Below are positions 4,915 through 24,322 of a DNA stretch of 24,322 nt, piece by piece. Below the pieces are notes generated by a model, which ran no database searches, was not told where the DNA came from, and saw only the letters and a program-made list of their open reading frames with translations. The translations under genes were made by a program, and so were the position numbers. The stretch lies in NCBI GenBank assembly GCA_964518225.1, contig CAZFEZ010000001.1, forward strand, positions 1-24,322. The letters are read 5' to 3'. Positions within the stretch are counted from its first letter, which is position 1. Each line of letters opens with the position of its first letter. Source of the stretch: an uncultured Methanosarcinales archaeon. Its GTDB lineage: Archaea; Nanobdellota; Nanobdellia; Woesearchaeales; GW2011-AR4.

Positions 4915-5304
4915 TTAGTAGCAGTAAGCCAAAAGCCTTCCTCCTGTCTTTTTTGATTTGGCGTCATAATGGGTCATAATTCCGCCCGGCGTTGATACAA
5001 AAAGTATGCCAAGATCCTTTGCAGGAAGGTACCTTGCCTCAAATTTTTCAAAATCTGTGTTTTTAACGCTGTATCTTGGCTTTATGACTCCGCATTTGTT
5101 TATGCTTCCGAGCAGGCTGAGCTTTATGTAATTGCCCCTGCTATCCTCTATTTCCTTAAAATCCGCGATATACCCGTTTTCCTTCATAACTCTTAACAGC
5201 TCCTTGATTATCTTTGACACAGGCTTTATCAGGCATTCAGATCTTCCGATTGCCTCATTGTTCAATATCAAAGACATCATGTTTGCGAGTGGGTCGTTTA
5301 ACAT
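4915..5304 (-). CDS. rps8: 30S ribosomal protein uS8
   Basis: DPLAN, INKCGVIKPRY, FEARYLPAKDLGILFVSTPGGIMTH, GGRLLAYCY. Confidence 0.98.
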   Translation of the reverse strand: MLNDPLANMMSLILNNEAIGRSECLIKPVSKIIKELLRVMKENGYIADFKEIEDSRGNYIKLSLLGSINKCGVIKPRYSVKNTDFEKFEARYLPAKDLGILFVSTPGGIMTHYDAKSKKTGGRLLAYCY

Positions 5305-5312
5305 TTTTCACC

Positions 5313-5543
5313 TTAGCTGTATTTTTTAAATCCGAGACTTGTTGCTATTTCCCTAAAGCATGTCCTGCACAGCCCCAGGCTGTACTTGCTTATGTAGCCG
5401 CCGGGCCTGCCGCATCTTCTGCATTTTTTTGTTGCCCTGCCGTATTTTCTCTGCTTAGGGGCATTATGTTTTATGTATTTCTGCATCTTGACAGGCTTGC
5501 TTTTCAGCTGCTTGAATACTTTTCTGTAATTGCTGTATGTCAT
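5313..5543 (-). CDS. rps14: 30S ribosomal protein uS14 (Zn-finger type, N-terminally extended)
   Basis: CRRC...[19 protein letters not shown]; synteny between rpl5 and rps8. Confidence 0.96.
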
Positions 5544-5544
5544 A

Positions 5545-6057
5545 TCATTCTTCCTCTATGTTTATGCTGAAATTTTTTGCCATGAAGTCTATAGCCTCCT
5601 GTTTTGATATCCTGTGCCTCGGTGGCACTTTTCTCATCAGCAGCCTTCTTCTCTTGATTCTGAAGCCGGGCCTCTCAAGCGTGATGCATACCTCAAGGCC
5701 CATAATGCCTATCTTCGGGTCGTATTTTACGCCCGGAATGTCTATATATTCATGGATTCCGAATGCTATGTTTCCGTTATCATCAAACTGCCTCTGGCTC
5801 ATCTTCTTGTCTATTGCGTCCAGCAAGCGGGGGAGTATCTGTGCAGCTCTTCCTTTCCTTAATGTAATCTTGCACCCAATCGGCAGTCCGGGCCTCAGGC
5901 CCCATTCCTGTATCCTCTTGCTCGTTACTGTCCTTATTGGAGTTGCATTTCCTATTGCATTGAGCAGCACCAGGCTTTTTTCCAGTTTTGCCTGGTCTTT
6001 TCCCGCCCCTATGTTCAATGTGACTTTCTCGATTTTGATATCCTTCATTGAGCTCAT
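5545..6057 (-). CDS. rpl5: 50S ribosomal protein uL5
   Basis: [53 protein letters not shown]. Confidence 0.98.
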
Positions 6058-6059
6058 CT

Positions 6060-6749
6060 TTATTCGACTGTAATCATTGGCTTTTCGCTGCCTATAACAA
6101 ATGCATATTTCTTTGATGTTTCTATCAGATTACCGCCCTGATCCTTGTAGGTTATTTTATTTTGAGTGATGTCCTCTATACTGCCGGTCTCGCCTATGTG
6201 CCTTCCGCCTATAAGGAATATCACGGATTTTTTCTCCAGCTTCAAGTGCTTGGCTATTTTCTGCTCAGGCAATGACAAAATAAGGGTGTCTCCGACTTTG
6301 TAAGCGCCGTTATCAACCAAAAGGTTTTTGCCGTCGTATAAGTTTAACTGCATCCTGCCGCCAACCATTGTCTTGCCGGTAATTTTGCAGGGCTTTACCA
6401 CAGCTTCGTCTTTATTTATCTTAACAAGGATCAGCTTGCCTTTTTTGTCCAGCATTACCCTGAAATGCTCATTTATATCCGTAAATTCTATTGTGTCAAA
6501 AAATCCCACCGGAAATCTGAAATCTTTTCTTGTAGTGCAGTCAATTTTTATGCCGCCGAGATTGAGGATTTTTTTAGCTTCCCTTGTAGTGTTTGCATAC
6601 CCAAATACTTCCTTAAGCAGCACGCCAAGAGGAATCCCGCTGCCTAAGCCGTGCGGGCCTGATGCTGGCTTTGTTATAAATTTGCGCTTCTTCCTGACGA
6701 TCTGCCATTTTTTTGGCGCTGCAAGCCTCTTTAAGTGGTCTTTGCCCAT
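6060..6749 (-). CDS. rps4e: 30S ribosomal protein eS4
   Basis: HLKRLAAPKKW, GPHG..SGIPLG, FPVGFFD, QLNLYDGKN, GGRHIG. Confidence 0.98.
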   Translation of the reverse strand: MGKDHLKRLAAPKKWQIVRKKRKFITKPASGPHGLGSGIPLGVLLKEVFGYANTTREAKKILNLGGIKIDCTTRKDFRFPVGFFDTIEFTDINEHFRVMLDKKGKLILVKINKDEAVVKPCKITGKTMVGGRMQLNLYDGKNLLVDNGAYKVGDTLILSLPEQKIAKHLKLEKKSVIFLIGGRHIGETGSIEDITQNKITYKDQGGNLIETSKKYAFVIGSEKPMITVE

Positions 6750-6750
6750 T

Positions 6751-7128
6751 TTATTTCCTCTCCAAAATCTTCTGCCTTAGCTTGTCATCGAGGTTCATCT
6801 CGGTTATCATTAAGTTTGAAGGATGCAGCCTGAGCAATTTCTTGGTTCCGTCTTTTTTTGCCGATTCTACGCCGCTGACAAGCACTCTTGTTCCTTTGAT
6901 GTCTATGCCCTCCACTTTGCCCTCGTGCTTCCTGAACTGGCCGCGCATGACTTTCACCTTGTCTCCTTTTCTCAGCCCCGTGCTTCTTTTGCCGTATTTT
7001 TTCCTTAAATCCTTTGAAAGGTGTGAATGCGATAATTTTTGCTTGATGTGGAGGGGAGCGCTTGACCTATACTTTCTCTGCTTTCGCGGCTTCGCGCTGC
7101 TTTTCCAAACTCTTGAAAAATGCTTCAT
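6751..7128 (-). CDS. rpl24: 50S ribosomal protein uL24 (start re-called to ATG 7128)
   Basis: SAKPRKQRKY, APLHIKQK, LRKKYG, GDKVKVMRGQF, HPSNLMI; the ORF-track start at 7173 overlaps rpl14. Confidence 0.96.
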   Translation of the reverse strand: MKHFSRVWKSSAKPRKQRKYRSSAPLHIKQKLSHSHLSKDLRKKYGKRSTGLRKGDKVKVMRGQFRKHEGKVEGIDIKGTRVLVSGVESAKKDGTKKLLRLHPSNLMITEMNLDDKLRQKILERK

Positions 7129-7133
7129 TTTAA

Positions 7134-7535
7134 TTATACAACTATGCTGGCTATTTTGGCTATGCCTGGCCACCTTTCACACGCCTCTTTTGCAATTGCG
7201 CCCTTGAAGATAGTGCCTTTTGGATTGCCCTTGTCGTCCTTCAAAACCACGGCTGAATTGTCTTCAAATTTTATCCTCATGCCGTCAGCCCTTCTGTATT
7301 CCTTCCTCTGCCGCACTATGACGGCAAAAACCACCTGTTTTCTCATATCGGGCTTGCCCCTTACAACAGATGCCATAACCAAGTCTCCAACGCCGCAGCT
7401 CTGTATCCTTCCCTTGACGGTATTCATGCCCCTGACAGTAAACACCCTGATTGTCTTTGCGCCTGAATTGTCACAAGTGTCAATCTTGCACCCAACCGGC
7501 AATGCCCTTGTCACCCTGGCTTTTAAAGGCTGCAT
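7134..7535 (-). CDS. rpl14: 50S ribosomal protein uL14
   Basis: CDNSGAK, GVGDLV, AVIVRQRKEYRRADG.RIKFEDNSAV, GNPKGT.FKG. Confidence 0.99.
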   Translation of the reverse strand: MQPLKARVTRALPVGCKIDTCDNSGAKTIRVFTVRGMNTVKGRIQSCGVGDLVMASVVRGKPDMRKQVVFAVIVRQRKEYRRADGMRIKFEDNSAVVLKDDKGNPKGTIFKGAIAKEACERWPGIAKIASIVV

Positions 7536-13070: not shown

Positions 13071-13086
13071 TTTATAAAGGTTGCGG
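13071..13086 (-). promoter_or_regulatory. Archaeal promoter (BRE-like CCGCAACC + TATA TTTATAAA) for the r-protein operon
   Basis: TTTATAAA at 13071-13078 with a BRE-like element upstream on the minus strand. Confidence 0.55.
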
Positions 13087-13116
13087 TATAAAAATTTGTT
13101 TTCCGGAAGGGTTAAA

Positions 13117-13124
13117 TTTATAAA
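13117..13124 (+). promoter_or_regulatory. TATA box for the sugar-nucleotide genes (near-leaderless)
   Basis: TTTATAAA 28 nt upstream of ATG 13153. Confidence 0.55.
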
Positions 13125-13152
13125 TCAACGGGCTAATTGGCATTCCTGTAAA

Positions 13153-13854
13153 ATGATTAAAACTGCGGTGGTGCTTGTTGGCGGAAGGGGCTTAAGGCTC
13201 ATGCCTTACACTCAGGACATACCGAAGCCAATGATAGAAGTTGGGGGGAAGCCTTTAGTGCACTGGATTGTGGACTGGCTGATAGAAAATAGAATCAAGA
13301 CTATTGTTTTCGGCGTTGACTACAAAAAAGAAGCCATCATTGGCTATTTGAAGCAGCAGCATTTCAGCGCTGAAATACTGTTTAATGACCACCATAATGC
13401 CAAAGGAACCGGAGATGCATTCAGGCTTGCGATAGAAAATAAGGGCATTAACGACAAGACATTTATTGCAATGAACGGCGATGAGCTTACAGACCTGTCA
13501 ATCAAGAATTTTTTGACGTTTCATAACGAGCACATGCCCATTGCGTCACTGATGGCTTACCCATTAAGAAGCCCTTATGGAGTTCTTGATATAGACCATG
13601 AATTCAACATAACAGCGTTCAGGGAAAAGCCGGTAATTGACAACTATTTTATCAACTCCGGGATTTACCTGTTTGACAAGCAGATAAAAAGCTATCTGCC
13701 CGAAAGCGGGTCTATAGAAGAAACAACCTTTGTGAAGCTCGCTGAAATTAAAAAAATAAAGGCTTTCAAGTACTTCGGATTTTGGCGCACGATAGACACG
13801 ATGAAGGACCTGGCAATTGTTGAGGAAAAGATAGGCGTTTTGAAAGAGGTGTAA
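13153..13854 (+). CDS. Sugar-1-phosphate nucleotidyltransferase (NTP_transferase family; start re-called to ATG 13153)
   Basis: VVLVGGRGLRLMPYT..IPKPMIEVGGKP signature, MNGD, FREKP, FW.TIDT; donor specificity not determinable. Confidence 0.92.
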   Translation: MIKTAVVLVGGRGLRLMPYTQDIPKPMIEVGGKPLVHWIVDWLIENRIKTIVFGVDYKKEAIIGYLKQQHFSAEILFNDHHNAKGTGDAFRLAIENKGINDKTFIAMNGDELTDLSIKNFLTFHNEHMPIASLMAYPLRSPYGVLDIDHEFNITAFREKPVIDNYFINSGIYLFDKQIKSYLPESGSIEETTFVKLAEIKKIKAFKYFGFWRTIDTMKDLAIVEEKIGVLKEV

Positions 13855-13855
13855 A

Positions 13856-14809
13856 ATGAAAATTCTTTTGACAGGGGTTACGGGGTTTATAGGAAGCGAG
13901 GTTGCAAGAAAGCTTGTTGAAGAAGGCGAGCATGAAGTGGCGGCTTTGGTGAGGGTCGGCTCAAATTTAAGCATGTTCGAGCCCATAAAAGACATCATAA
14001 GCAATCTGGATGTGAGGTATGGCAATTTATCAGATTTTCATTCAATCAAAAGAATTGTAAAGGATGTTTCTCCGCAATATATTCTGCACATCGGCGCGCA
14101 GACAAGCGTGAGGCATTCCTTTGAGCTGCCCCTCGAGTATAATGACACCAATTATCTCGGCACCATCAATTTGGTTCATGCTGCTTTGGAAGTGCCTTCA
14201 TTCAAGAAGCTAATTTTCGCCTCGACAATGGAAACTTATGGATGGCAGCCAAAGAAAATTCCGTTCAGGGAAGACCTGAGCTTAAATCCTGCAAGCCCCT
14301 ATGCAGCCTCAAAAGCAGCCTGTGAAATCTACATCAGGATGGCGCAGAAGGCATTCGGGCTGCCCTACATAATTTCGAGGGCGTGCAATACATTCGGAAG
14401 AAAGCACAATTCCGGGTTTGTGACAGAATATTTAATTACGACAATGCTCAAGAACCAGACAGTTTATCTTGGAACTCCGAATGCTGTCAGGGACATGATG
14501 TACGTCGACGACCATGTAAACGCGTATCTAAGAATGCTTAAGTCAAATGCTGTGAATGACACTTTTAATTTCGGCACAGGCTCAAGGACAAAGATGAAGG
14601 AGATAGCAGAAAAGATCAGGAAATTTACTGATTTCAAAGGCACGATTGCGTATACTTTCCCGCCGAATTACCCGTGGAGGCCTGTTGTTGAGGGTTTCCT
14701 TTCATTGAATTCAGGCAAAGCCAGAAAAAAACTGGGCTGGAAGCCAAAATACAGCCTTGACGAAGGCCTGAGAAAATCAGTTGGGTACTGGAAAGAGAAA
14801 TTAGCTTAG
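13856..14809 (+). CDS. NAD-dependent NDP-sugar epimerase/4,6-dehydratase (extended SDR, GMD/RmlB-like)
   Basis: GVTGFIG Rossmann motif, STMETYG, catalytic YAASK, NTFGR, RDMMYVDD, FNFGTG, LGWKPKYSLDEGL. Confidence 0.93.
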   Translation: MKILLTGVTGFIGSEVARKLVEEGEHEVAALVRVGSNLSMFEPIKDIISNLDVRYGNLSDFHSIKRIVKDVSPQYILHIGAQTSVRHSFELPLEYNDTNYLGTINLVHAALEVPSFKKLIFASTMETYGWQPKKIPFREDLSLNPASPYAASKAACEIYIRMAQKAFGLPYIISRACNTFGRKHNSGFVTEYLITTMLKNQTVYLGTPNAVRDMMYVDDHVNAYLRMLKSNAVNDTFNFGTGSRTKMKEIAEKIRKFTDFKGTIAYTFPPNYPWRPVVEGFLSLNSGKARKKLGWKPKYSLDEGLRKSVGYWKEKLA

Positions 14810-15516
14810 CCAAAATATTTTTCTTTCAAAGCTGAGAGAATCGGCTTTGTATACGAGAGAAATTGCTTCCTGTAGTTTAATGTTGACTTCTTGTCCGCCC
14901 TTTGGTAATGTATTGGCACTTCTATTGCTTTGTACCCTTTGTTAATTGCTTTCAGAAAAATCTCAACGTGCAATCCGAATCCAGTGCTTTCCAGATTCAG
15001 ATTTTCTAACACTTTCTTTTTGTAGAGCTTGAATCCGGTTGTTATGTCTTTGACATTTGTTCCAGCCAGAAGCCTTGTCATTAAATTGAATGACCTGCTT
15101 ATTATGGACCTCTTTAAGTTCATGTCCGCCCTGCCGCCTCTTGTGTATCTTGAGCCTATGATTATGTCAGCTTCGTTTTTGTGCTTCAGCAGATTGGGAA
15201 TTTCATCCGGAGAATGGGACAGATCGCAGTCCATTATGATAAGGTATTTTCCTTTTGAGTTTACAAAGCCTTCCCTCAAAGAGCTTCCAAGGTCTGTATT
15301 GGGCATGTTTCTTCTGTGGATAACCCTTACTCTTTTGTCTTTCTTTGCTACACTGTCTGCCAGAATTCCGGTATTGTCTGTGCTGTGGTTGTCCATGAAG
15401 ACTATTTCGCCGCTTATTTTGTGCTTGTCAAATACAGCCAGGACTTGCCTGAGAACGCTTTGAACTGTTTTCTGCTCGTTTAATGCCGAGATTACAACTG
15501 AGAGTTCCGTTGCCAT
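14806..15516 (-). CDS. Glycosyltransferase family 2, dolichol/polyprenol-phosphate mannosyltransferase-like (ATG 15516 preferred over TTG 15537)
   Basis: LSVVISALNE, DNHSTDNT, MDCDLSHSP (DxD), IIIGSRYTRGG, DITTGFKLY, EVPIHY. Confidence 0.9.
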   Translation of the reverse strand: MATELSVVISALNEQKTVQSVLRQVLAVFDKHKISGEIVFMDNHSTDNTGILADSVAKKDKRVRVIHRRNMPNTDLGSSLREGFVNSKGKYLIIMDCDLSHSPDEIPNLLKHKNEADIIIGSRYTRGGRADMNLKRSIISRSFNLMTRLLAGTNVKDITTGFKLYKKKVLENLNLESTGFGLHVEIFLKAINKGYKAIEVPIHYQRADKKSTLNYRKQFLSYTKPILSALKEKYFG

Positions 15517-15541
15517 TTTAACTCTTTTTGCAGTCAAGGTT

Positions 15542-16180
15542 TTATATTTTTCCTCTTTTTTTGTAAATATAGTATCCTGATCCTGCCAGAACTAATGCCG
15601 CCCCTATTGTGGTGAATTCCGGAACTTCATGCTCTTCCTGCCCGTAAGAATCATTTTCGTCTGTATACTCATTCTCATAATTATCTTCATTATCCCAATC
15701 ATTCTCTTCTGAATTTTCGTCATTTTGGCCCTCTTGCTCGCTGTTTTCTTCAGAATGATCATTAGTTGATTGGTTTGATTCATTATAATCTTCAGTATTT
15801 TCGTTGCTGTTCTCTTGGCCGTCAGGCTGGCTTTGGCTGTTACCTGAAGAGCCTGAACTGCCTCCAGACGAACCTCCACCGCCACCTCCTCTTAAGCGTA
15901 CGTAAGCATGGCCTCCTGGATAATTTACATTATAGCTGTGGCCGCTGCCATTTGTATAGTTAAGTGTGCCATTTAAGAATGAATTGTAAAGGTTGAATAG
16001 GGAACTGTTTGTATCATTCAAAGACTGGTTTATTGTTGTATTGAGGCTCTTGCCTGCAATGTCCAAAGTGGTGTTGCCGTCAAACTCTATGTGAACATTC
16101 TTGTTGGACGGGATATAGGCACATCCGCTAGCAAAGGCTAGCACGATTAGTATCCCCATTAAAAGTGTGTTTTTTCTCAT
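15542..16180 (-). CDS. Secreted lipoprotein-like surface protein with PEF-CTERM sorting tail
   Basis: N-terminal MRKN + hydrophobic + ASGC lipobox; 11 N-X-S/T sequons; Gly/Ser linker; acidic N/E/D tract; C-terminal VPEFTTIGAALVLAGSGYYIYKKRGKI. Confidence 0.85.
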   Translation of the reverse strand: MRKNTLLMGILIVLAFASGCAYIPSNKNVHIEFDGNTTLDIAGKSLNTTINQSLNDTNSSLFNLYNSFLNGTLNYTNGSGHSYNVNYPGGHAYVRLRGGGGGGSSGGSSGSSGNSQSQPDGQENSNENTEDYNESNQSTNDHSEENSEQEGQNDENSEENDWDNEDNYENEYTDENDSYGQEEHEVPEFTTIGAALVLAGSGYYIYKKRGKI

Positions 16181-16229
16181 AGCAATCCCAACATATTTTC
16201 ACTACTTATGAATAAGTATAAAGAGGTAG

Positions 16230-16237
16230 TATTTAAA
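16230..16237 (-). promoter_or_regulatory. TATA box (TTTAAATA) of the first PEF-CTERM gene
   Basis: GAAATC-TTTAAATA on the minus strand, about 50 nt upstream of ATG 16180. Confidence 0.4.
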
Positions 16238-16300
16238 GATTTCTGTTGTATAAACTTTATAGTAGTTACAAGATTATTTCAAATTCTAAAATTTAAGTTA

Positions 16301-16341
16301 ATAAAATAAAAATAAGAAATAAGAAATAAAAAAAGAAAAGT
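16301..16341 (-). terminator. Long U-rich archaeal intrinsic terminator after the second PEF-CTERM gene
   Basis: Minus strand ACTTTTCTTTTTTTATTTCTTATTTCTTATTTTTATTTT directly after the stop codon. Confidence 0.6.
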
Positions 16342-16821
16342 TTACTTTCTGCTTCTCTTCCTGTACATGTACAATCCTGCTCCTGCAAGTGCCAATCCTG
16401 CTCCTAGAGTTGTGAACTCTGGGATTAAGACCAATCCACTCTCGCTGGCAACTTCTACATTAGCAACTTCACCATTTACTTTGTAAACATATGTTCCTGG
16501 TGATGCTCCTGCTGTAGTCAATGTTACTTCGCCACATCCTGTTCCGTCTGTTGGTGATGAAGTCACAGTTGGTGTGAATTCTGCTGAAGGACCCTCAGCT
16601 CCATTACAGACTTGGTTGTTATCCAAATCCTGACAGTATGTGTCTATAACCAAATCAACTCCCACAAATGGGTCGTCAAATGCGTCTGTTATACAGGCGT
16701 CAACTGTTCTTACATCAGTTGTATCCATGGTTGTAACCTGCGGATCCAAATCCAAATCTGATGCCAGCACAGAACTAGCCATAAGCACAAAAAGTGCCAA
16801 TATACCAAATAATTTCTTCAT
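16342..16821 (-). CDS. Secreted acidic Thr/Asp-rich protein with PEF-CTERM sorting tail
   Basis: Signal peptide MKKLFGILALFVLMASSVLA; 4 Cys; C-terminal IPEFTTLGAGLALAGAGLYMYRKRSRK; strong SD GGGGGTG at 16829-16835. Confidence 0.9.
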   Translation of the reverse strand: MKKLFGILALFVLMASSVLASDLDLDPQVTTMDTTDVRTVDACITDAFDDPFVGVDLVIDTYCQDLDNNQVCNGAEGPSAEFTPTVTSSPTDGTGCGEVTLTTAGASPGTYVYKVNGEVANVEVASESGLVLIPEFTTLGAGLALAGAGLYMYRKRSRK

Positions 16822-16903
16822 TTTTTTACACCCCCAAGTGTATAAGTTTATTATTATTTATAGTAATGCGTGATTACTATTAAAGCGTGGAAAGCTAATT
16901 GGG

Positions 16904-16919
16904 TATTTAAATGTTTCGG
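16904..16919 (-). promoter_or_regulatory. Consensus archaeal promoter (BRE CCGAAAC + TATA TTTAAATA) of the second PEF-CTERM gene
   Basis: Minus strand CCGAAACATTTAAATACCC. Confidence 0.7.
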
Positions 16920-16975
16920 TTTGCCCAAAAAAATGTTAACTTAGGAGTGGTGGTGTTTTTGTGTGAGTTTAGCGT

Positions 16976-17554
16976 TTACCAGAAAAACCATGATTTTGTG
17001 TATATGATATAGATTGCCAATAATATGTTTGCTGTAAAGTGCGCCATAACAGCAGAGCCCATATCCTTTCTTAGATATATAGTGTAATTAAGAACAATGC
17101 CGGCTATAAGGCCTGGAAGCCACCTGTTGTGGGAAAACCCAAAAAACAAAGCTGTCAGAATAAAAGATGTTGCTGTAAATTTTCCAATTGGAACTTTTTG
17201 CCATTCGTTCTTTATCAAAATCCTCGCCAAGAAATTTCGTGTGAAGAACTCTTCTATAACGGGCGCTATTATTATGAATGAAAAAACCCTGAAGAAAAGT
17301 GAAATATTATTTTCAGGAACGTATGACGTTGCTCCCAGCTGGGGATAGAGCCCTTCCAGCAGAATCCACAGAAGGAAAATTGTTATACCGGCAAGAATTG
17401 AAAGAATATCGAGCTTTAATTTGAATTTGTAGGATTTCCTGAATAAGAGAAGAAAAAGAAATAAAATGGCAACCCTGATTATTGATCCGTGATTATAATT
17501 GATTAGCGGAATTGTAAGAATGTATGCCAAGAATGGTATTATGTAATAGTACAT
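16976..17554 (-). CDS. CPBP-family (CAAX protease-like) glutamic intramembrane protease, resembling PEP-CTERM-associated CAAX-related proteins
   Basis: Multi-TM protein with CPBP motifs EExxxR (IEEFFTR), FxxxH (FFGFSH), HxxxN (AHFTAN); VPIGKF segment and W..W C-terminus. Confidence 0.88.
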   Translation of the reverse strand: MYYYIIPFLAYILTIPLINYNHGSIIRVAILFLFLLLFRKSYKFKLKLDILSILAGITIFLLWILLEGLYPQLGATSYVPENNISLFFRVFSFIIIAPVIEEFFTRNFLARILIKNEWQKVPIGKFTATSFILTALFFGFSHNRWLPGLIAGIVLNYTIYLRKDMGSAVMAHFTANILLAIYIIYTKSWFFW

Positions 17555-17629: not shown

Positions 17630-18595
17630 ATGAGAAAAGCTGACGATGATTTGCTCAGGATAGGCAATCTGACAATAATTTTAGGCGGCAGGACTATCTT
17701 GGAGGGCATTGATATTAATGTCAGGGAAGGCGAGATGCTCGGCCTTGTAGGCGTTTCCGGAGCCGGAAAAACAACACTGCTTAATTCAATAATTGGCTAT
17801 TATCCTGTTGCCAAGGGGGATATACTTTACAATTCTTCAAGGCAGAGGAGGTTTACCTCAATTCTTGACAAGTTCAGCAATTTCAAGGGTTTGTTCGGGT
17901 TTTCGGCGCAAAACCCCTCGTTTTACCCGGAGCTTTCGGCGATTGAAAACCTTGAGTATTTTGCAAGCCTGTACAACATACCGGATGGCATAAAGGCGCA
18001 GAACATCGAGAGGGCGCTGAAGCTTGTGAAAATGCACGAGCATAAAAATATGATAGCCAAGAATCTGTCAGGGGGAATGAAGAAGCGGCTTGACATAGCA
18101 TGCGCTATTGTGCATTTCCCGAAAGTGCTGCTACTTGACGAGCCCACTTCTGACATGGACCCGTGGCTCAGGATCCAGATTTGGGGGCTGATAGAGGACA
18201 TAAACAAGAACGGCACTACTGTAATTGTGGCTTCCCATTTTCTCTCGGAGATTGAGCACATATGCGACAGGATCGTGTTTATACACAACAAAAGGGTTGA
18301 ATTCGAGGGCTCTCCGCGCCATTTCAGGAATATACATGCAAAAACAAAAGAGATCCACATCATAACCAGGGACGGAAAATACAATATCATACTCAAAAAA
18401 ATTATGGATATGCCTTTCCTGAAGGTAAAGCAGGTGCTGAAAAAGAAGGGCAGGATAATACTTCATTCAAGAGAGAGCGAGAATGCAATAAACAGCGCAA
18501 TATCAAAATTAATGAAGGGGGAGGGCAATATTTCTGATGTTGAAATAACAAACCCGTCTTTGGACATGCTTTTCAAGATATTTGTGGAAAAATGA
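17630..18595 (+). CDS. ABC transporter ATP-binding protein (ABC-2/DrrA-like exporter)
   Basis: Walker A GVSGAGKT, signature LSGGMKKR, Walker B LLLDEP, H-loop SHFLSE, C-terminal PSLDMLF. Confidence 0.96.
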   Translation: MRKADDDLLRIGNLTIILGGRTILEGIDINVREGEMLGLVGVSGAGKTTLLNSIIGYYPVAKGDILYNSSRQRRFTSILDKFSNFKGLFGFSAQNPSFYPELSAIENLEYFASLYNIPDGIKAQNIERALKLVKMHEHKNMIAKNLSGGMKKRLDIACAIVHFPKVLLLDEPTSDMDPWLRIQIWGLIEDINKNGTTVIVASHFLSEIEHICDRIVFIHNKRVEFEGSPRHFRNIHAKTKEIHIITRDGKYNIILKKIMDMPFLKVKQVLKKKGRIILHSRESENAINSAISKLMKGEGNISDVEITNPSLDMLFKIFVEK

Positions 18596-20286
18596 ACAAA
18601 CTTGCGCTCATAATTAAGAAAAATTTCCTGATTTTGGTAAAATCAAGGTGGCTTTCGCTGGTTGTTGTGCTCGGGCCCCTGCTCATAATTTTTCTTACAG
18701 GAATAGCGTTCGACAACCTCAATGAGTACAAGATAAACATAGGAGTTTATTCAGGCATATACACGGAAGTTACAAACTCATTCATATCAAAGCTTAACAC
18801 AGACCAGTTCAGGACCATAAAATCAGGCTCTGAGGCAGGATGCATAGATGACGCAAAAATGGGATTTTCCCACACGTGCGTGATATTCCCTTCAAACCTC
18901 ACTCTTGGAGGCAGGAACAAGGATGTTATGATTTACATAGATTACTCAAAGCTGAATCTTGCGTGGATTGTGAGAGACAGGCTTTTTTCAAGGGTCGAGG
19001 AGCAGTCAGCTGAGATCACAAGGCAGCTGACTGAGAATATACTGTCAAAGCTGATTCTTACAAAGAATGAGATATCGGGCGATATAATCCTTCTTGAGGT
19101 TGCCCGGGACAACGAGCAGGGAATTTCCGACAAGATAAATGAGGCGTTTTTGCTGATTTCAGGCATAAATACAACAGCCGGCCTGAATGAAAGCGATATT
19201 GACAGGCTTGAATCAAAAATAAGCTCCGTGAAATCCGCGTTTGACATAACAATAGACAAGGCCACAGGAAACATAGAGTTCAGCGAAGATATTGTAAATT
19301 CAGGCGAATTTAGCGAGTCCAGCGAGGATGATTACCTTGATGAACTGGATGAGCTAAGAGACGATATAGAAGGCCAGAGGCGGTATGTTGAGGACCTTTT
19401 CAGCCCTTCATTTTCCGGCTCCATAAACAATACGCTCGGAAATATAAGGCTTAGAGTGGTAAAGCTGAACCTGAATGCTGACGCTGCTGATTTGCTGATA
19501 TCCGGCAGCAAAGCCAATCTATACAATGTGAGCCAGCTTCTCTCGCTTAACGGGAAGATAATCAATAAAATGGCTTTTTCAATGGACAATGTGAAAAATA
19601 ATCTTGAGAGCATAGACATGCTCAGCGCAGAGGACATAGCAGCCCCTGTTGTGGCAAACATAAAGCCTTTGACATCCTACAACTCTTACCTGAACTACAT
19701 TTTCCCGACTTTGATGGCCATGGCAATCATGTTTGCCTCGCTTCTTTTGTCGGCAATTGTTGTTGTCATGGAATTCAACACGCCAGCATATTTCAGGAAT
19801 TCCATTTCGCCGACCGGAAAGGTTGTTTTCTTTTTAGCCTCATATTTGACAAATTCATCTTTGGTTGGGGTGCAGATTTTAATAATGCTGCTTATATCGA
19901 TGCTTTTCTTTTTCTCCCAGGTAATGGGAAATATATTCACGACTTTGGCTGTGTGCTTTTTTATAGCGTCTTTTTTCATAGTGCTTGGAATGGGCATTGG
20001 CTACCTGTTCAGGACGGAGCAGATGTCGATCCTGGCAGCGACTTTTGCATCGAGCATTTTTTTGTTCCTTTCAAATGTGCTTACCCCGATAGAGAACATG
20101 CCGGAGTTTTTCATGAGGATAGTGCAGTTCAACCCTTTCATTATATCTGTTTCGCTGCTCAGGAAGTCTTTACTGTTCGGGCAGTCACTCATAGCAATAA
20201 ATGCTGAGATTCTGTATTTGGTAGTGTTCACTCTTTCGCTGCTGGTTGTTTATGCGGCAGTTTACTACAGGAATTTGAGAAAATAG
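18592..20286 (+). CDS. ABC-2 type permease with large extracellular coiled-coil loop (YhgE/Pip-like architecture)
   Basis: One N-terminal TM, about 330-aa helical loop, five C-terminal TM segments, P...MP...I..FNP motif; ATGA overlap with the ATPase. Confidence 0.85.
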   Translation: MNKLALIIKKNFLILVKSRWLSLVVVLGPLLIIFLTGIAFDNLNEYKINIGVYSGIYTEVTNSFISKLNTDQFRTIKSGSEAGCIDDAKMGFSHTCVIFPSNLTLGGRNKDVMIYIDYSKLNLAWIVRDRLFSRVEEQSAEITRQLTENILSKLILTKNEISGDIILLEVARDNEQGISDKINEAFLLISGINTTAGLNESDIDRLESKISSVKSAFDITIDKATGNIEFSEDIVNSGEFSESSEDDYLDELDELRDDIEGQRRYVEDLFSPSFSGSINNTLGNIRLRVVKLNLNADAADLLISGSKANLYNVSQLLSLNGKIINKMAFSMDNVKNNLESIDMLSAEDIAAPVVANIKPLTSYNSYLNYIFPTLMAMAIMFASLLLSAIVVVMEFNTPAYFRNSISPTGKVVFFLASYLTNSSLVGVQILIMLLISMLFFFSQVMGNIFTTLAVCFFIASFFIVLGMGIGYLFRTEQMSILAATFASSIFLFLSNVLTPIENMPEFFMRIVQFNPFIISVSLLRKSLLFGQSLIAINAEILYLVVFTLSLLVVYAAVYYRNLRK

Positions 20287-20305: not shown

Positions 20306-20800
20306 TCAGAAAAACCTCTTGATGACTATCTCCATGTGATATGCATAGTGTTCCTCTTTGCCGGAATACGACTTTAAAACTTCATTAAACCTTTTTAGCA
20401 GTTCATCCTTATCAGCATACTTGGAAAGCGCTTCAATATCCTCTTCGTCCCTTGCATTGAATCTTGCCGCTTTCGTTATGATAATATCAATTGGGTCAAG
20501 GGCCTTCAAATCAATATTTTTCATCCTGATTATTTCCTTTGACTTTTCAGAATAATCAGCTGGCAGCTGCTCGGAAAAAATGTAGCCATCGGTAAAAATG
20601 TCTACTTTGAATTTCTTATCCGATGCTTTCGCAAAATCCTTCTTTTCCTCAGATTTCAGGCAAAAATCCACATCTCTTGTAGAGGATTTCAGGCCAAGTA
20701 GTGTCATTGCTGTGCCACCTACAGCTATCAAAGTGATCTTCCTGTGAAGCTTTCGGTCTACAGACTTTAGCCATCTGACTAATTTATTTCTGTCAATCAT
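20306..20800 (-). CDS. Nucleotidyltransferase, AbiEii/DUF6036-like (putative toxin)
   Basis: VGGTAMTLLGLKSSTRDVDF (GG...TxDxD) and K..RFNARDEEDI motifs. Confidence 0.8.
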   Translation of the reverse strand: MIDRNKLVRWLKSVDRKLHRKITLIAVGGTAMTLLGLKSSTRDVDFCLKSEEKKDFAKASDKKFKVDIFTDGYIFSEQLPADYSEKSKEIIRMKNIDLKALDPIDIIITKAARFNARDEEDIEALSKYADKDELLKRFNEVLKSYSGKEEHYAYHMEIVIKRFF

Positions 20801-21453
20801 AAGTACACCTTTGCATTATTTGCAAAATCTTCATCAAAAAACCTTCCAAGTAATTTCCATTTTTTGACCCGTGCCGGGGATTCTCTCGACAGAAATTCAT
20901 AATCCCCTTCAACTAGAAATGACACTTCCCTATTTTTGTTTGAGTCAAGGTATGAAAGCAGTTCTTTGAGATAGTCCACAGGTTTTATCATCATCGCCGT
21001 TTCCAAAAGATACCCTATTTTGTTGCTTATTCCGTAATTTGACGCAAGCTCAAGCAGCCTGAATTTGTCTATGCGGTTTTTTATAATTATAATTGGAATT
21101 GCCTCTATAAACCTTGCTTTCGGGAGCTTGAAAAGTATTGTTGCTATCAATTCTTCCACAGGGATTATCTTTCCTTTTTTCTTCTTGAGAGAAATCATCT
21201 CATAGCCATAATGGGAAAGATTGTATTCTATTGCGGGAGCGTCTTCCCTGTTGTCTTTGTTTACCTCATTTAATATATTTTCATGCGCCAGTATGTTTGC
21301 AGCTACCAGCTTTGGCCTGATTGACCTGTATAGATAATTCCTTTCTGTCTGCTTCAGCTTTCTGCCTTCCATTTTCTTAGCTATGGTTTCTATCTCGACT
21401 TTGCCGAATATCTTTCTTACAGCTTCGTGCCTCAGTGCCTGCAATTTAGTCAT
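20797..21453 (-). CDS. Hypothetical protein, possible AbiEi-like antitoxin/regulator
   Basis: ATGA-coupled upstream of the nucleotidyltransferase; basic helical N-terminus; C-terminal NKIGYLLE and W.L segments reminiscent of AbiEi C-domains (weak, by eye). Confidence 0.55.
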   Translation of the reverse strand: MTKLQALRHEAVRKIFGKVEIETIAKKMEGRKLKQTERNYLYRSIRPKLVAANILAHENILNEVNKDNREDAPAIEYNLSHYGYEMISLKKKKGKIIPVEELIATILFKLPKARFIEAIPIIIIKNRIDKFRLLELASNYGISNKIGYLLETAMMIKPVDYLKELLSYLDSNKNREVSFLVEGDYEFLSRESPARVKKWKLLGRFFDEDFANNAKVYL

Positions 21454-21542: not shown

Positions 21543-24322
21543 CTATTTCTTTGCCAGCCTGATTATCCTGTCTACAGTTTCCTCTTTCCAGCCTGCTTTC
21601 AGAAGATGTTGGCGTATCTTTTCTTTGGAATGGCCCTGCTGCAGAGCCTGGATCGTATATCTGTAAAGACGTTCCTCGTGCTTTGCCAGTTCTTTCGGAA
21701 TCTGCACTGATTCCAGAGTCCTGATGAAATGAAGTATTGGAATTACAGAAAATATCACCACAATCAATGCCAATAATGCCAGTGCTGTGTGGCTTTTTAT
21801 GAATACCAATCCGGGGTTTAATGCCGATGCAAAGCTTGTCGTGAACCTGCCGAATACTGACTTTGAGCGCTTAATCACAATGAATGCGCCGCTTGAAGAT
21901 GCAAATGTATTGCCGTGCTGAGCCTTTATTGCTGCAGTGTAATCGCCGGGCCCCATATCTGAAGCCAATTTGAATGTTTTTGTGAATTCTAATCTTTTAT
22001 CCAAGCTTAACGATTCTGTTTTCTGGTAGACTGCTTCGCCTTTTGAATTTTTTAATGTGTAAGCTGCTGTCAGGTCAACTTTGCCCGGGGCGAGGTTTTG
22101 GATTGTTATCTGGGCCTTTAAATCTGATCCCTGCTTTACTTTATTGTAGGAGTTTGGAATCTGAAGCTTGACAGTAAATAATGACGGGGGTTGGGCTGCT
22201 GCGCCTGTGCTTGTTTGCTGCGGGGTGGTGTTTGCTGTTGATGTGCAAGTTTGGCTTGTTGCAGGGCCATTGTCAGCTGAATCGCATGGTGCTTCCCGGG
22301 AATGCTGCGCAACCTTTGCGAAATCACACTGCCTTTTCTGCACCCCGTCCTTGCATTCCGACCAGCTCCTGCATTGCCATTCATAGCTGCAGACATAGGA
22401 TATGCCGCCTCCGCCGCCCCCACCTCCTCCGCCTGAACTTCCGCCGCCTGAGCTGCTTTCGGAGGAGCTGCTGGACGATGAGCTTGATGAAGAGCCAGTA
22501 TCTGCAGGTGTTTCCTCAACTGTGTAAGTGCTGAATCCTGTAACATTGAAAGTTATGGTCGAGCCTGTGGAATTTATGATCCTGCATACTGTATCCGGGC
22601 ACACGGCCCCGTCCCTCAATATCCTGGGGTTGGTGTAGCTCAGGTTGTAAAAATTAATAGTTGCAGGGACATTAAGCTCCGGAACGTTTGCAGTGTCGAC
22701 AAAAACGCTGTTGGAAGTTATGCTTGTGTAAGCGCCTATGTCTAATGCCCTTGTGAGGTTTATGGTCCTGATGAAATTTATCCTTCCGTATATTGCCTTC
22801 TCAATTGTCAGATTTGTTATGTTGTCTGCATCAACTTTCGATAAATCTGTAGTGGTGCCGTCAAATCTGGATATGTTTATCGCTATTGTTGTGAAGTTAA
22901 ACATTGCAGATGAACCGCAGCCGATGTCATTGCATGAAGTGACTTTAAAGTAATATGCTGAGCCCCGGGCCAGATTATTCAATGAAAGCTTATGGTCTTT
23001 GGTTTGCTTTGAATCTGCCAATGCTGCTCCAAGCGAAGGCGATGTTCCGTAATCGACTTTGCTGTCTGAAAGATGCGAGGTCTGCCAGTAAATGTCTGTG
23101 TTTAGCGACGGAGGCGAGAATCCTGTTTTCAGGATAGTTGGAGGAAATGCCTGCTGCGTATCGTTGATGGCAGTTACGAGCCAATGCTTTGACGTGTTTG
23201 AAGAGTTATCGCTTAAAACTGCAGTTATGCTGAATATTCCTATTTTGCTGAAGATATAAGTTAAGTTTTTGTTGGTGGTGTTTAACGTTTTGTTTACGTA
23301 CCACTGCAATGCCAATTTGTCATTTTCATTGTCGGAGCCTGTTATGTTGAAAATGACGGTTGTTGTGAAGTTGTATTCGGGATTTATGCTTGAAGGCTGG
23401 AATTCAGCTATTGTTGGAGGCAGGTTTGGAGGGATGTAAGTCTTTGCTGTCGTGAAGTTCAATGCTTTGCTTGAAGCGCAGTTTCCTAAAGAATCGCATA
23501 CTAATGCCCTGTAATAGACTATTGTGCCTGAAGCTAGGCCTGACAAAGTGACAACAGAGGTTGTGTGGAATTTTGAGTCGGCTGCGGTGTTTGCGAGAGC
23601 GTTGCTTTTGTAGCCCCATGAAACGCTTAAGTTTGCGCTTTCGTCAGTCTTAGCCTTGATATTAGAGCTTTGATTTGTCGTGCTATCATTTCCCAGAAAG
23701 GTTATTGCGGGAGGATCAACATCAGCCGGTATTGAACCCACTCCCCCTCCATTTATTGTGTAATAATCGCTGTTTTGGCCGGAAACTACATCAAAAGTTA
23801 CTTTTGTCCCTGATTCAGAGGCTTTTATGTTTTCATTTCCGTTTTTTGTGACTGCGAAATCCTTGTTTTTTTTCAATTCTTTCGCGTCTATTGTCACGCT
23901 TACTGTCTTCGGGTAGTCTATGTATTTGTTTCTCTGCATTGTGTTTACTGTCAATGTGATTTTATCTTCTGATCTTTGCAGATGGGCGGACAATGTGTCT
24001 GCTGCTGAAAGCAGATCAATCTTTCCGGCTTTTATCGAGGTTGTGTTGAAGGCTGCAATTTCCTTTGTGTCGTCGTTGTAAGCCAATGCCCATCCTGTTG
24101 CCTGCTTGTCGCTGTAAGCTGACGTGCCGTCATTGTTTGTGTCAAAAATAATTACGTTGCTGTTTTGCTGCAGGCCCTTGTCTATGCCATTAATTGCTAA
24201 GATAGTTTGCTTGTTTCCTGTTGTGTACCAGTGGTGCGCTAAAATGAAGTCGACATCATTGGCTGGAGTGTACAAGTAAGTTCTTCTGTAAGTTCCTGCA
24301 CCCCTGGCACTTCCTGAGCACG
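21543..24322 (-). CDS. Large modular membrane-anchored surface glycoprotein, 5'-truncated (frame open to window edge)
   Basis: The ORF-track start at 24275 is an internal TTG; the frame reads CSGSARGAGTYRRTYL to the edge. Two FN3-like repeats, PKD/Ig-like domains, Ser/Gly linker, Cys/Trp motif, TM helix, short tail; 22 sequons. Confidence 0.88.
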   Translation of the reverse strand, partial: CSGSARGAGTYRRTYLYTPANDVDFILAHHWYTTGNKQTILAINGIDKGLQQNSNVIIFDTNNDGTSAYSDKQATGWALAYNDDTKEIAAFNTTSIKAGKIDLLSAADTLSAHLQRSEDKITLTVNTMQRNKYIDYPKTVSVTIDAKELKKNKDFAVTKNGNENIKASESGTKVTFDVVSGQNSDYYTINGGGVGSIPADVDPPAITFLGNDSTTNQSSNIKAKTDESANLSVSWGYKSNALANTAADSKFHTTSVVTLSGLASGTIVYYRALVCDSLGNCASSKALNFTTAKTYIPPNLPPTIAEFQPSSINPEYNFTTTVIFNITGSDNENDKLALQWYVNKTLNTTNKNLTYIFSKIGIFSITAVLSDNSSNTSKHWLVTAINDTQQAFPPTILKTGFSPPSLNTDIYWQTSHLSDSKVDYGTSPSLGAALADSKQTKDHKLSLNNLARGSAYYFKVTSCNDIGCGSSAMFNFTTIAINISRFDGTTTDLSKVDADNITNLTIEKAIYGRINFIRTINLTRALDIGAYTSITSNSVFVDTANVPELNVPATINFYNLSYTNPRILRDGAVCPDTVCRIINSTGSTITFNVTGFSTYTVEETPADTGSSSSSSSSSSSESSSGGGSSGGGGGGGGGGISYVCSYEWQCRSWSECKDGVQKRQCDFAKVAQHSREAPCDSADNGPATSQTCTSTANTTPQQTSTGAAAQPPSLFTVKLQIPNSYNKVKQGSDLKAQITIQNLAPGKVDLTAAYTLKNSKGEAVYQKTESLSLDKRLEFTKTFKLASDMGPGDYTAAIKAQHGNTFASSSGAFIVIKRSKSVFGRFTTSFASALNPGLVFIKSHTALALLALIVVIFSVIPILHFIRTLESVQIPKELAKHEERLYRYTIQALQQGHSKEKIRQHLLKAGWKEETVDRIIRLAKK

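What the first reader, a model, noticed from the sequence alone, without database searches (positions are those of the whole stretch)
15542..17554. Two PEF-CTERM cargo genes next to a CPBP intramembrane protease with no archaeosortase: candidate new protein-sorting system
Seen: two unrelated secreted proteins end in equal-length 27-aa tails, 16/27 identical (PEFTTxGAxLxLAGxGxYxY[KR]KR; motif-TM-basic cluster; 15542-15625 and 16342-16425). Directly upstream on the same strand is an intact CPBP protease (EExxxR, FxxxH, HxxxN). No exosortase/archaeosortase-type gene is in the window. Known: PEF-CTERM (TIGR03024) is paired with archaeosortase C in Euryarchaeota; CAAX-related proteins (TIGR03008) co-occur with PEP-CTERM/exosortase; CPBP-family myxosortases process MYXO-CTERM tails. 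Inference: here a CPBP enzyme may itself cleave or re-anchor PEF-CTERM proteins, a sortase-like pairing I do not know of in DPANN-like archaea.
Basis: partly seen in the sequence, partly recalled or inferred. Interest (0 to 1): 0.78.

Follow-up and report, generated by a model that had tools for sequence, protein, structure and literature searches.

The report
DPANN PEF-tail sorting module with CPBP protease
Two surface proteins in this Woesearchaeota-like archaeon carry a conserved C-terminal "PEF" sorting tail next to a membrane protease. The pairing recurs across related archaea, but relatives also carry an archaeosortase beside the same protease, so this looks like a split version of a known two-enzyme sorting system rather than a sortase-free one.

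Summary
Two otherwise unrelated secreted proteins (15542-16180 and 16342-16821, minus strand) end in 27-residue tails that are 16/27 identical. An intact 192-aa CPBP protease (16976-17554) lies directly upstream, and the window holds no exosortase or archaeosortase gene.

The link between protease and tail is conserved. Of 43 DPANN loci carrying this CPBP clade, 29 have [IV]PEF tails within 10 kb, up to 12 in tandem, mostly directly downstream.

The "no archaeosortase" inference does not hold for the clade:
- In 6-7 of the 43 loci an exosortase/archaeosortase-family gene sits beside the CPBP, and in two it abuts or overlaps it.
- Both enzymes score best against the two halves of the bacterial fusion protein exosortase E/protease.
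- In 12 of 46 metagenome loci the same type of archaeosortase lies next to identical PEF tails with no CPBP nearby.

The most likely reading is a three-part system of archaeosortase, CPBP and PEF-tailed cargo, with the archaeosortase encoded elsewhere in this genome. I could not check the whole genome.

The tails do not match TIGR03024 (PEF-CTERM). They lack the invariant cysteine of myxosortase signals and have no curated model.

Verdict: a new variant of a known kind, of moderate interest.

The parts
16976..17554 (-). CPBP (Rce1-like) glutamic-type intramembrane protease, 192 aa, about 7 TM helices, a member of TIGR03008
   Evidence: PF02517 45 bits. TIGR03008 113 bits against 81, and TIGR04162 positions 349-513 at 71 bits. 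EExxxR, FxxxH and HxxxN are invariant in 27 homologues. The AF2 model has pLDDT 94.9 and is all-helical.
16342..16821 (-). Cargo B: 159 aa, with a Sec-type signal peptide, an all-beta domain with 4 conserved Cys, and a PEF tail. It is the conserved first gene downstream of the CPBP.
   Evidence: Orthologues lie directly downstream of the CPBP in at least 14 loci. Ig-like hits are weak only. The single-sequence model is low-confidence but all-beta.
16342..16425 (-). Tail of B: IPEFTTLGAGLALAGAGLYMYRKRSRK plus the stop codon (motif, Gly/Ala-rich TM, basic cluster)
15542..16180 (-). Cargo A: 212 aa, with a lipobox-like signal peptide (Cys20), 11 N-x-S/T sequons, a Gly/Ser run, an acidic low-complexity region and a PEF tail. 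Lineage-specific cargo.
   Evidence: In the closest relative this position holds a VWA-domain PEF protein instead.
15542..15625 (-). Tail of A: VPEFTTIGAALVLAGSGYYIYKKRGKI plus the stop codon
14806..15537 (-). Context: GT2 glycosyltransferase resembling dolichyl-phosphate hexose transferase / AglJ, 4 nt downstream of cargo A. Likely surface-glycoprotein glycosylation.
   Evidence: PF00535. NF041391 and TIGR04182 are the best hits but fall below their cut-offs. GT2 and epimerase genes recur near the CPBP in 9-11 loci.
17630..20286 (+). Context: divergently transcribed ABC-2 exporter (ATPase 17630-18595, 564-aa permease 18592-20286). Syntenic in the window's subclade only.
   Evidence: Conserved in 8 loci.

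Best explanation
The three genes are the substrate-plus-protease part of a DPANN-wide C-terminal protein-sorting system that works like a split exosortase E/protease (XrtE) system.

Shown:
- Cargo proteins are Sec-exported (signal peptides) and carry a tripartite tail: an [ED][IV]PEF[TSG] motif, a Gly/Ala-rich TM helix and a Lys/Arg cluster.
- A TIGR03008-type CPBP protease with intact catalytic residues is genetically coupled to genes that encode this tail.
- In relatives, the same CPBP clade and the same tails are each coupled to an exosortase/archaeosortase-family enzyme.

Inferred:
- An archaeosortase encoded outside this 24-kb window recognises the PEF motif at the outer membrane face. 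It cleaves there and transfers the mature protein to a lipid or another surface acceptor, as ArtA does for PGF-CTERM.
- The CPBP acts on the same tails as a second enzyme. By the positive-inside rule, its catalytic residues (the EE motif and the HxxxN motif) sit in the cytoplasmic half of the membrane. It therefore most plausibly cuts within or at the inner end of the Gly/Ala-rich helix, for example to clear the membrane-embedded remnant or to trim the stop-transfer end. It is unlikely to cut at PEF itself.
- Cargo B is the conserved core substrate. Cargo A and the other array members are variable, probably glycosylated, surface proteins.
For: - CPBP family membership and intact active-site motifs.
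- Tails are found in 29 of 43 CPBP loci and in 27 of the 34 loci with at least 8 kb of flank. In 20 of 36 loci a tail-bearing gene starts within 1 kb downstream of the CPBP. Density is 0.51/kb in the 0-3 kb downstream, against 0.035-0.09/kb upstream and 0 in 525 kb of bacterial control loci.
- Archaeosortase-family genes lie next to the CPBP in L021, L025, L027, L028, L031 and L047, with a weak extra hit in L030. They score 43-50 bits on TIGR04178 (cut-off 23) and 39-47 bits on PF09721 (cut-off 25.7).
- These archaeosortases and the CPBP match the N-terminal and C-terminal halves of TIGR04162. EpsH-CAAX protease fusions were already noted as a Rosetta stone (PMC1569441).
- CPBPs with an adjacent archaeosortase are scattered over the archaeal CPBP tree.
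- Archaeosortase-centred metagenome loci carry the same tails in 12 of 46 cases, including 7 in tandem in L119, with no CPBP nearby. Unlinked arrangements are therefore normal.
- The tail consensus is the same in the CPBP-linked (n=97) and archaeosortase-linked (n=18) sets.
- A bacterial XrtE fusion locus carries a tail GVPEINADSGATALTLVAGAMLWIRQARRH, which resembles the VPEF/Gly-Ala tails found here.
- This archaeosortase family is large: 238 clusters at 50% identity with E<=1e-30.
Against: - No archaeosortase was found within about 10 kb of the CPBP in the window or in any of the six loci of its closest subclade (L002, L003, L004, L010, L011, L013). The rest of those genomes could not be searched, so loss of the archaeosortase in this lineage is not excluded.
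- The CPBP is linked to substrates much more tightly than to the archaeosortase, which is also what a CPBP-only model predicts.
- The proposed job of the CPBP (inner-leaflet cut or remnant clearance) is inference only. No TIGR03008-type protein has a demonstrated function.
- Structural support for the fold is weak. The Foldseek top hit is SpdC (6u0o_A) at E=0.36, and there is no PDB sequence hit.
Confidence: 0.6

Rival explanations
1. One reading: in this lineage the CPBP protease alone is the sorting enzyme for PEF tails. It cleaves them, and releases or re-anchors the cargo, with no archaeosortase in the genome.
For: - No archaeosortase lies within about 10 kb in the window or in its six closest related loci.
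- The CPBP is more tightly linked to tail-bearing genes (29 of 43 loci) than to archaeosortases (6-7 of 43).
- CPBP enzymes are accepted stand-alone sorting proteases for MYXO-CTERM, JDVT-CTERM, Synerg-CTERM and CGP-CTERM (bioRxiv 10.1101/2023.06.07.544157; PMC11980579).
Against: - All known CPBP sorting signals have an invariant Cys that is thought to be lipidated first. Only 5 of 97 tails here have a Cys near the motif.
- The CPBP does not reach the cut-off of any myxosortase model (MrtJ 30 bits against 75). It is instead a member of the exosortase-associated family TIGR03008.
- Identical tails are found next to archaeosortases with no CPBP nearby.
- Archaeosortase adjacency is scattered across the CPBP tree.
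- By topology, the active site is predicted in the inner leaflet, far from the external PEF motif (inference).
Confidence: 0.2
2. The tails are ordinary, unprocessed C-terminal membrane anchors, and the CPBP is a housekeeping or immunity-type Abi protein whose adjacency has no mechanistic meaning.
For: The function of TIGR03008-type CPBPs is unproven. About 8 CPBP loci with long flanks have no PEF tail nearby. Each of the three window genes appears to have its own AT-rich upstream region, and a T-rich stretch follows B, so they may not form one operon (read by eye).
Against: - The motif and the small-residue pattern in the TM helix are conserved among otherwise unrelated proteins.
- Adjacency is directional and close-range, and it survives across CPBPs as little as 38-45% identical.
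- The tails are independently linked to archaeosortases.
- There are no such tails in 525 kb of bacterial control sequence.
Confidence: 0.08
3. The CPBP works with the divergently transcribed ABC-2 exporter, as a bacteriocin-type export and immunity module. The PEF genes are bystanders.
For: The ABC-2 ATPase and permease are syntenic with the CPBP in 8 loci. NCBIfam holds a permease/CPBP fusion family, NF041647, which the CPBP hits weakly (13.9 bits).
Against: ABC synteny is confined largely to the window's subclade, whereas PEF linkage spans the whole archaeal clade. The window permease does not hit NF041647 and looks like a generic DrrB-type permease. There is no bacteriocin-like small gene nearby.
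Confidence: 0.04

Closest known systems
Exosortase E/protease with VPEID-CTERM (XrtE; TIGR04162; bacterial fusion of an exosortase and a CPBP domain)
   Same: - The window CPBP's best subfamily-specific hit, after TIGR03008, is the protease half of this model (positions 349-513, 71 bits). The archaeosortases next to the CPBP in relatives hit the exosortase half (positions about 49-299).
- The gene order archaeosortase then CPBP in L021 and L031 mirrors the domain order of the fusion.
- The cognate tails look alike: VPE plus a hydrophobic residue, a Gly/Ala-rich helix, then basic residues.
   Different: - Here the two enzymes are separate genes and are usually unlinked.
- All scores are below the TIGR04162 cut-off of 150.
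- The motif is [IV]PEF, not VPEID.
- The hosts are DPANN archaea.
- No exosortase domain is present in this window.
TIGR03008 (pepcterm_CAAX), the CAAX prenyl protease-related protein of PEP-CTERM/exosortase systems
   Same: The window protein passes the curated cut-off (113 bits against 81). NCBI already names its homologues this way. In 6-7 related loci it sits beside an exosortase-family gene.
   Different: - The family was defined on bacteria with PEP-CTERM and EpsH.
- Here it is archaeal and lies primarily next to substrates rather than next to the sortase.
- The substrates carry PEF tails, not PEP tails.
PEF-CTERM / archaeosortase C (TIGR03024 / TIGR03762) of Euryarchaeota
   Same: It has a PEF motif, a TM helix and a basic cluster at the C terminus of secreted proteins, with an exosortase-family enzyme in related genomes. 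One CPBP locus (L046) carries classical TIGR03024 tails.
   Different: - The window tails do not hit TIGR03024 at all. Their helix is Gly/Ala-rich rather than Ile/Leu/Phe-rich.
- One of the four DPANN archaeosortases scanned reaches only 35.6 bits on the ArtC model (cut-off 100); the other three do not hit it.
Myxosortases (MrtX, MrtC, MrtJ, MrtS, MrtA, MrtP): CPBP proteases for MYXO-, JDVT-, Synerg- and CGP-CTERM
   Same: A CPBP-family intramembrane protease is genetically tied to proteins that carry a tripartite C-terminal signal.
   Different: - All myxosortase signals contain an invariant Cys. The tails here do not (5 of 97).
- The model scores are below cut-off (MrtJ 30 bits against 75).
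- Myxosortase systems have no exosortase partner.

Membership tests
CPBP / Rce1-like intramembrane proteases (PF02517) | HMM score above the Pfam gathering threshold | tested here: met
   45 bits against 22.4
CPBP / Rce1-like intramembrane proteases (PF02517) | The three catalytic motifs EExxxR, FxxxH and HxxxN | tested here: met
   E101, E102, R106, F138, H142, H172 and N176 are invariant in 27 homologues
CPBP / Rce1-like intramembrane proteases (PF02517) | Fold like MmRce1 or another solved CPBP protein | tested here: inconclusive
   The model is confident (pLDDT 94.9). The Foldseek top hit is the CPBP-family protein SpdC (6u0o_A), but only at E=0.36 and TM 0.41. No PDB sequence hit.
TIGR03008 (exosortase-associated CAAX protease-related protein) | HMM score above the curated cut-off | tested here: met
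   113 bits against 81.05
TIGR03008 (exosortase-associated CAAX protease-related protein) | Exosortase-family enzyme in the same genome or neighbourhood | not testable with these tools
   None in the window or within about 10 kb in the six closest loci. Present beside the CPBP in 6-7 of 43 related loci.
PEF-CTERM sorting domain (TIGR03024) | HMM score of at least 23 bits | tested here: not met
   No hit even at E<=10 for either window tail. The positive control, the L046 tail, scores 28.4 bits.
PEF-CTERM sorting domain (TIGR03024) | Tripartite C-terminal architecture with a Pro-Glu-Phe motif | tested here: met
PEF-CTERM sorting domain (TIGR03024) | Co-occurrence with archaeosortase C (TIGR03762) | tested here: not met
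   The archaeosortases in related loci reach at most 35.6 bits on TIGR03762 (cut-off 100). They fit the generic model TIGR04178 and the XrtE model better.
Myxosortase systems (CPBP with a Cys-containing CTERM signal) | Invariant Cys in the signature motif of the signal | tested here: not met
   Neither window tail contains Cys. Only 5 of 97 related tails have a Cys within 4 residues of PEF.
Myxosortase systems (CPBP with a Cys-containing CTERM signal) | CPBP reaches the cut-off of an Mrt model | tested here: not met
   NF033192 (MrtJ) scores 30.2 bits against 75. No other Mrt model is listed.
Exosortase E/protease, VPEID-CTERM system (TIGR04162) | Single polypeptide with an exosortase domain and a CPBP domain, scoring at least 150 bits | tested here: not met
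   The protein is 192 aa and covers only the CPBP half, at 71 bits. In relatives the exosortase half is a separate gene.
Exosortase E/protease, VPEID-CTERM system (TIGR04162) | VPEID-type cognate tail | tested here: inconclusive
   The tails read [IV]PEF[TSG], compared with GVPEINAD in an XrtE locus. Neither type is detected by Pfam or NCBIfam tail models in this scan.
LPXTG / sortase | LPXTG motif and a sortase gene | tested here: not met
   TIGR01167 matches only the TM and basic part of the tails (16.9 and 19.4 bits). There is no LPXTG motif, and nothing in the CPBP neighbourhoods resembles a sortase.

The most novel reading that the evidence does not exclude
The lineage of this window has lost, or never had, an archaeosortase. 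Its TIGR03008-type CPBP would then be the sole processing enzyme for a cysteine-free [IV]PEF sorting signal. That would be the first CPBP sorting protease acting on a signal without Cys, and the first assigned function for the exosortase-associated CAAX-protease family.
Probability: 0.17. Interest if true: 0.75.

Novelty: new variant of a known kind. Interest (0 to 1): 0.5.

Why it matters
DPANN archaea are mostly uncultured and many live attached to host cells, so their surface proteins are central to their biology. This [IV]PEF tail marks arrays of up to 12 surface-protein genes per locus. It would allow a DPANN surface proteome to be predicted from sequence, yet no curated model recognises it. 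Taken alone, the tails even score above the cut-off of the LPXTG model, so they risk being misannotated.

The finding also bears on a question open since 2006: what the CAAX-protease-like partner of exosortases does. In DPANN this protease is linked more tightly to the substrates than to the sortase. That argues it acts directly on the sorting tails, and it provides small, simple gene sets in which to test this, for example the three-gene cassette in L031.

Tried and rejected
- Two searches of the 5.8-billion-protein database with DPANN archaeosortase alignments returned only 7 and 20 hits, and not even all of the queries themselves. They say nothing about an archaeosortase in this lineage.
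- The exhaustive representative search found a large family (238 clusters at E<=1e-30). The hits carry no genome context, and a cluster look-up gave no accession numbers, so none could be mapped to this genome.
- Look-ups of NCBI and Logan archaeosortase hits landed in unrelated assemblies or samples.
- Bacterial relatives of the CPBP showed no adjacent exosortase that could serve as a seed.
The single-sequence model is too poor for a fold search.
- The fold search and the PDB sequence search for the CPBP gave weak or no matches.
- No tRNA or Rfam family is present in the window.
- Literature searches found nothing on archaeosortases, PEF tails or XrtE in Woesearchaeota or DPANN. Haft et al. 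2012 was not available to read.
- Rejected readings: LPXTG/sortase (no motif), membership of classical PEF-CTERM (HMM test failed), and membership of the myxosortases (no Cys, HMM below cut-off).
Full report
**What is in the window**

On the minus strand lie three consecutive genes:
- a 192-aa membrane protein (16976-17554);
- a 159-aa protein, B (16342-16821);
- a 212-aa protein, A (15542-16180).

A GT2 glycosyltransferase follows 4 nt later (14806-15537). An ABC-2 exporter is transcribed divergently upstream (17630-20286).

A and B both start with signal peptides. A's ends in a lipobox-like LAFASG|C. Both end in 27-residue tails, VPEFTTIGAALVLAGSGYYIYKKRGKI and IPEFTTLGAGLALAGAGLYMYRKRSRK, which are 16/27 identical. 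BLASTP finds no other similarity between the two proteins. The tail DNAs differ at many synonymous sites.

The 192-aa protein is a CPBP/Rce1-like protease. It scores 45 bits on PF02517 (cut-off 22.4). EExxxR, FxxxH and HxxxN are invariant in 27 homologues.

Two HMMs built from DPANN archaeosortases find nothing in the window. The tails do not match the curated PEF-CTERM model TIGR03024 even at E<=10, although the model is in the library and hits a classical tail from L046 at 28.4 bits.

**Who it is**

All 76 close homologues of the CPBP that carry a name are labelled Woesearchaeota, Nanoarchaeota or simply archaeon. The nearest is 79% identical, from GCA_016187465.1, a groundwater Woesearchaeota MAG. 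It shares the same arrangement of ABC exporter, CPBP and two PEF-tailed genes. The rest of the window is a ribosomal-protein operon plus sugar-nucleotide genes.

**Is the CPBP-tail link real?**

A scan of one genome per GTDB species with the CPBP alignment gave 43 archaeal loci, essentially all DPANN, plus bacterial outliers.
- 29 of the 43 archaeal loci have at least one [IV]PEF tail within 10 kb. Among loci with at least 8 kb of flank, the figure is 27 of 34.
- Arrays reach 12 genes in L017.
- In 20 of 36 loci a tail-bearing gene starts within 1 kb downstream of the CPBP.
- Tail density is 0.51/kb in the first 3 kb downstream, against 0.035-0.09/kb upstream. 66 of the 97 tails are on the same strand and downstream.
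- The same scan finds none in 525 kb of bacterial control loci.

The link holds down to 38-45% CPBP identity.

Clustering of all neighbourhood proteins shows that B belongs to the second most recurrent family, after the CPBP itself. It is a protein of about 160 aa with four conserved cysteines and an all-beta core, and it is the first gene downstream of the CPBP in at least 14 loci. A is lineage-specific; the closest relative has a VWA-domain PEF protein in its place.

The tail consensus is [ED]-[IV]-P-E-F-[TSG]-x-[IL]-[GA]-A-[GA]-L-A-L-x-G-A-G-x4-[KR]3-5.

**The archaeosortase**

The same clustering turned up a polytopic membrane protein next to the CPBP in six loci (L021, L025, L027, L028, L031 and L047).
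- The four members scanned pass TIGR04178, the exosortase/archaeosortase family model (43-50 bits, cut-off 23). The three also scanned against Pfam pass PF09721 (39-47 bits, cut-off 25.7). The other two are assigned to the family by homology.
- It carries the conserved Cys/Ser-Gly, Arg and His positions of the family.
- Its best or near-best specific model is TIGR04162, exosortase E/protease, matching the N-terminal half.
- A broader HMM adds a weak seventh case in L030.

In L021 the archaeosortase gene overlaps the CPBP start by 4 nt. L031 has a compact cassette of archaeosortase (5053-6492), CPBP (6494-7090) and a PEF protein (7177-7422).

The window's CPBP, for its part, matches the C-terminal protease half of TIGR04162 (71 bits) and passes TIGR03008, the exosortase-associated CAAX protease-related family (113 bits against 81). 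Fusions of EpsH and CAAX-protease domains were already pointed out as a Rosetta stone in 2006 (PMC1569441).

On a neighbour-joining tree, the CPBPs with an adjacent archaeosortase are scattered through the archaeal clade.

**The reverse view**

A scan of metagenome contigs with the archaeosortase catalytic domain gave 46 loci. None has the CPBP in its flanks. Twelve carry the same PEF tails, including seven in tandem in L119 and two directly downstream in L110. The tail consensus matches that of the CPBP-linked set.

An exhaustive profile search shows that this archaeosortase family is large: 238 clusters at 50% identity with E<=1e-30, and 1660 with E<=1e-10.

PEF-tail genes therefore sit next to the CPBP, next to the archaeosortase, or next to both. 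Unlinked arrangements are the norm.

**Interpretation**

The most economical reading is a three-part system of archaeosortase, CPBP and tailed cargo. It is an archaeal, split counterpart of the bacterial XrtE/VPEID-CTERM system.

A bacterial XrtE fusion locus fetched for comparison encodes a small protein ending in GVPEINADSGATALTLVAGAMLWIRQARRH. This is visibly similar to the VPEF/Gly-Ala tails found here.

In this window only the CPBP and two substrates are visible. The archaeosortase would be encoded elsewhere.

The steps are supported to different degrees:
- Shown: the family memberships, the tail architecture and the three pairwise gene linkages.
- Inferred from established knowledge of ArtA and PGF-CTERM: the archaeosortase cuts at the external PEF motif and transfers the protein to a lipid.
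- My own inference: the role of the CPBP. Its basic loops place the EE and HxxxN motifs in the cytoplasmic half of the membrane (sequence; positive-inside rule), as in Rce1. That is a full helix away from PEF. It therefore more plausibly cuts within or at the inner end of the conserved Gly/Ala-rich helix, to clear the remnant or trim the anchor, than at PEF.

Neither the window nor the six loci of its closest subclade has an archaeosortase within about 10 kb. I could not search the rest of those genomes.

The CPBP is also linked to substrates more tightly than to the sortase.

Against the CPBP-only model:
- Every known CPBP sorting signal has an invariant Cys (bioRxiv 10.1101/2023.06.07.544157; PMC11980579). 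Only 5 of 97 tails here have one.
- The CPBP falls below the cut-off of all myxosortase models.
- Identical tails occur with archaeosortases alone.

I put the three-part model at about 0.6 and the CPBP-only model at about 0.2.

**Comparison with what is known, and novelty**

| Family or system | Result for the window |
|---|---|
| PF02517 (CPBP) | Member |
| TIGR03008 | Member |
| TIGR03024 (PEF-CTERM) | Not a member |
| Myxosortase systems | Not a member |
| TIGR04162 (XrtE) | Not a member: separate genes, below cut-off |
| LPXTG | Not a member; the isolated tails spuriously exceed the TIGR01167 cut-off through their TM and basic part |

NCBI already names the enzymes generically. No curated model recognises the tail. 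The searchable literature contains nothing on archaeosortases or PEF tails in Woesearchaeota or DPANN.

I class this as a new variant of a known kind. It is a DPANN-wide, un-modelled PEF-type sorting signal served by a split XrtE-like enzyme pair. Interest is moderate (0.5). The system is not new in kind. It does give a handle on the DPANN surface proteome, and it is the clearest genomic hint so far that the exosortase-associated CAAX-type protease acts directly on sorting tails.

Noticed in passing
window 15542-16180 (-): Cargo A combines several features: a lipobox-like signal peptide (LAFASG|C, Cys20), 11 N-x-S/T sequons, a Gly/Ser run, a long acidic low-complexity stretch, and the PEF tail. 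It could be anchored at both ends and heavily glycosylated.
   Followed up: partly
window 13081-15537: An NDP-sugar transferase, an epimerase/dehydratase and a GT2 enzyme lie directly beside the cargo genes. The GT2 resembles AglJ / dolichyl-phosphate hexose transferase, but scores below the cut-offs. GT2 and epimerase genes recur near the CPBP in 9-11 related loci, echoing the link between exosortases and polysaccharide loci.
   Followed up: partly
window 17630-20286 (+): A DrrAB-like ABC-2 exporter with an unusually large 564-aa permease is transcribed divergently from the CPBP. It is syntenic in 8 loci, mainly the window's subclade. Its role is unknown.
   Followed up: partly
window 20306-21453 (-): A DUF6036 nucleotidyltransferase and an overlapping 218-aa gene with no family hit occur as the same pair in L003. 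This may be a toxin-antitoxin-like module.
   Followed up: no
window 21543-24275 (-): This is the C-terminal part of a giant surface protein that runs towards the window end. It has poly-Ser/Gly linkers, 22 sequons, and a C-terminal TM helix followed by a cytoplasmic tail, but no PEF motif. Homologues of 1400-1900 aa with Laminin_G_3/CARDB domains hold the same position in L002-L004.
   Followed up: partly
L021:8571-10004, L027:564-1940, L031:5053-6492 (also P0079): The long-form DPANN archaeosortases carry an extracytoplasmic insert of about 200 aa. They read SSG where the family has its catalytic CSG, with a Cys four residues upstream. The short forms (L025, L028, L047) keep CSG. The nucleophile may be shifted or altered.
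   Followed up: no
L046 (contig CAYUEX010000010.1): A CPBP of the same clade (41% identical) is surrounded by four proteins with classical TIGR03024 PEF-CTERM tails (PEFATIAIPAVAILGLF...). The CPBP partnership may therefore extend to the euryarchaeal-type PEF-CTERM system.
   Followed up: partly
L047:10710-10991: A 93-aa ORF matching the C-terminal ~85 residues of the archaeosortase at L047:6441-7955 lies directly downstream of the CPBP. It is either a local duplication or an assembly repeat.
   Followed up: no
window tails 15542-15625 and 16342-16425: Scanned as isolated peptides, the tails exceed the curated cut-off of the LPXTG anchor model TIGR01167 (16.9 and 19.4 bits against 15.9). This happens purely through the TM and basic segment, so automatic annotation may call such proteins LPXTG-anchored.
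   Followed up: yes
L010-L012, L017, L021 and other loci: Several MAGs titled 'uncultured Methanosarcinales archaeon' (binchicken assemblies) carry gene content and CPBP sequences typical of Woesearchaeota/DPANN. The titles look like placeholder taxonomy.
   Followed up: no
L022:10727-11221 and L033:10748-11242: Orthologues of cargo B in these two loci have PEM instead of PEF in the tail motif (YIPEMTVLGS and YIPEMGVIGA). The third motif position therefore tolerates Met.
   Followed up: no
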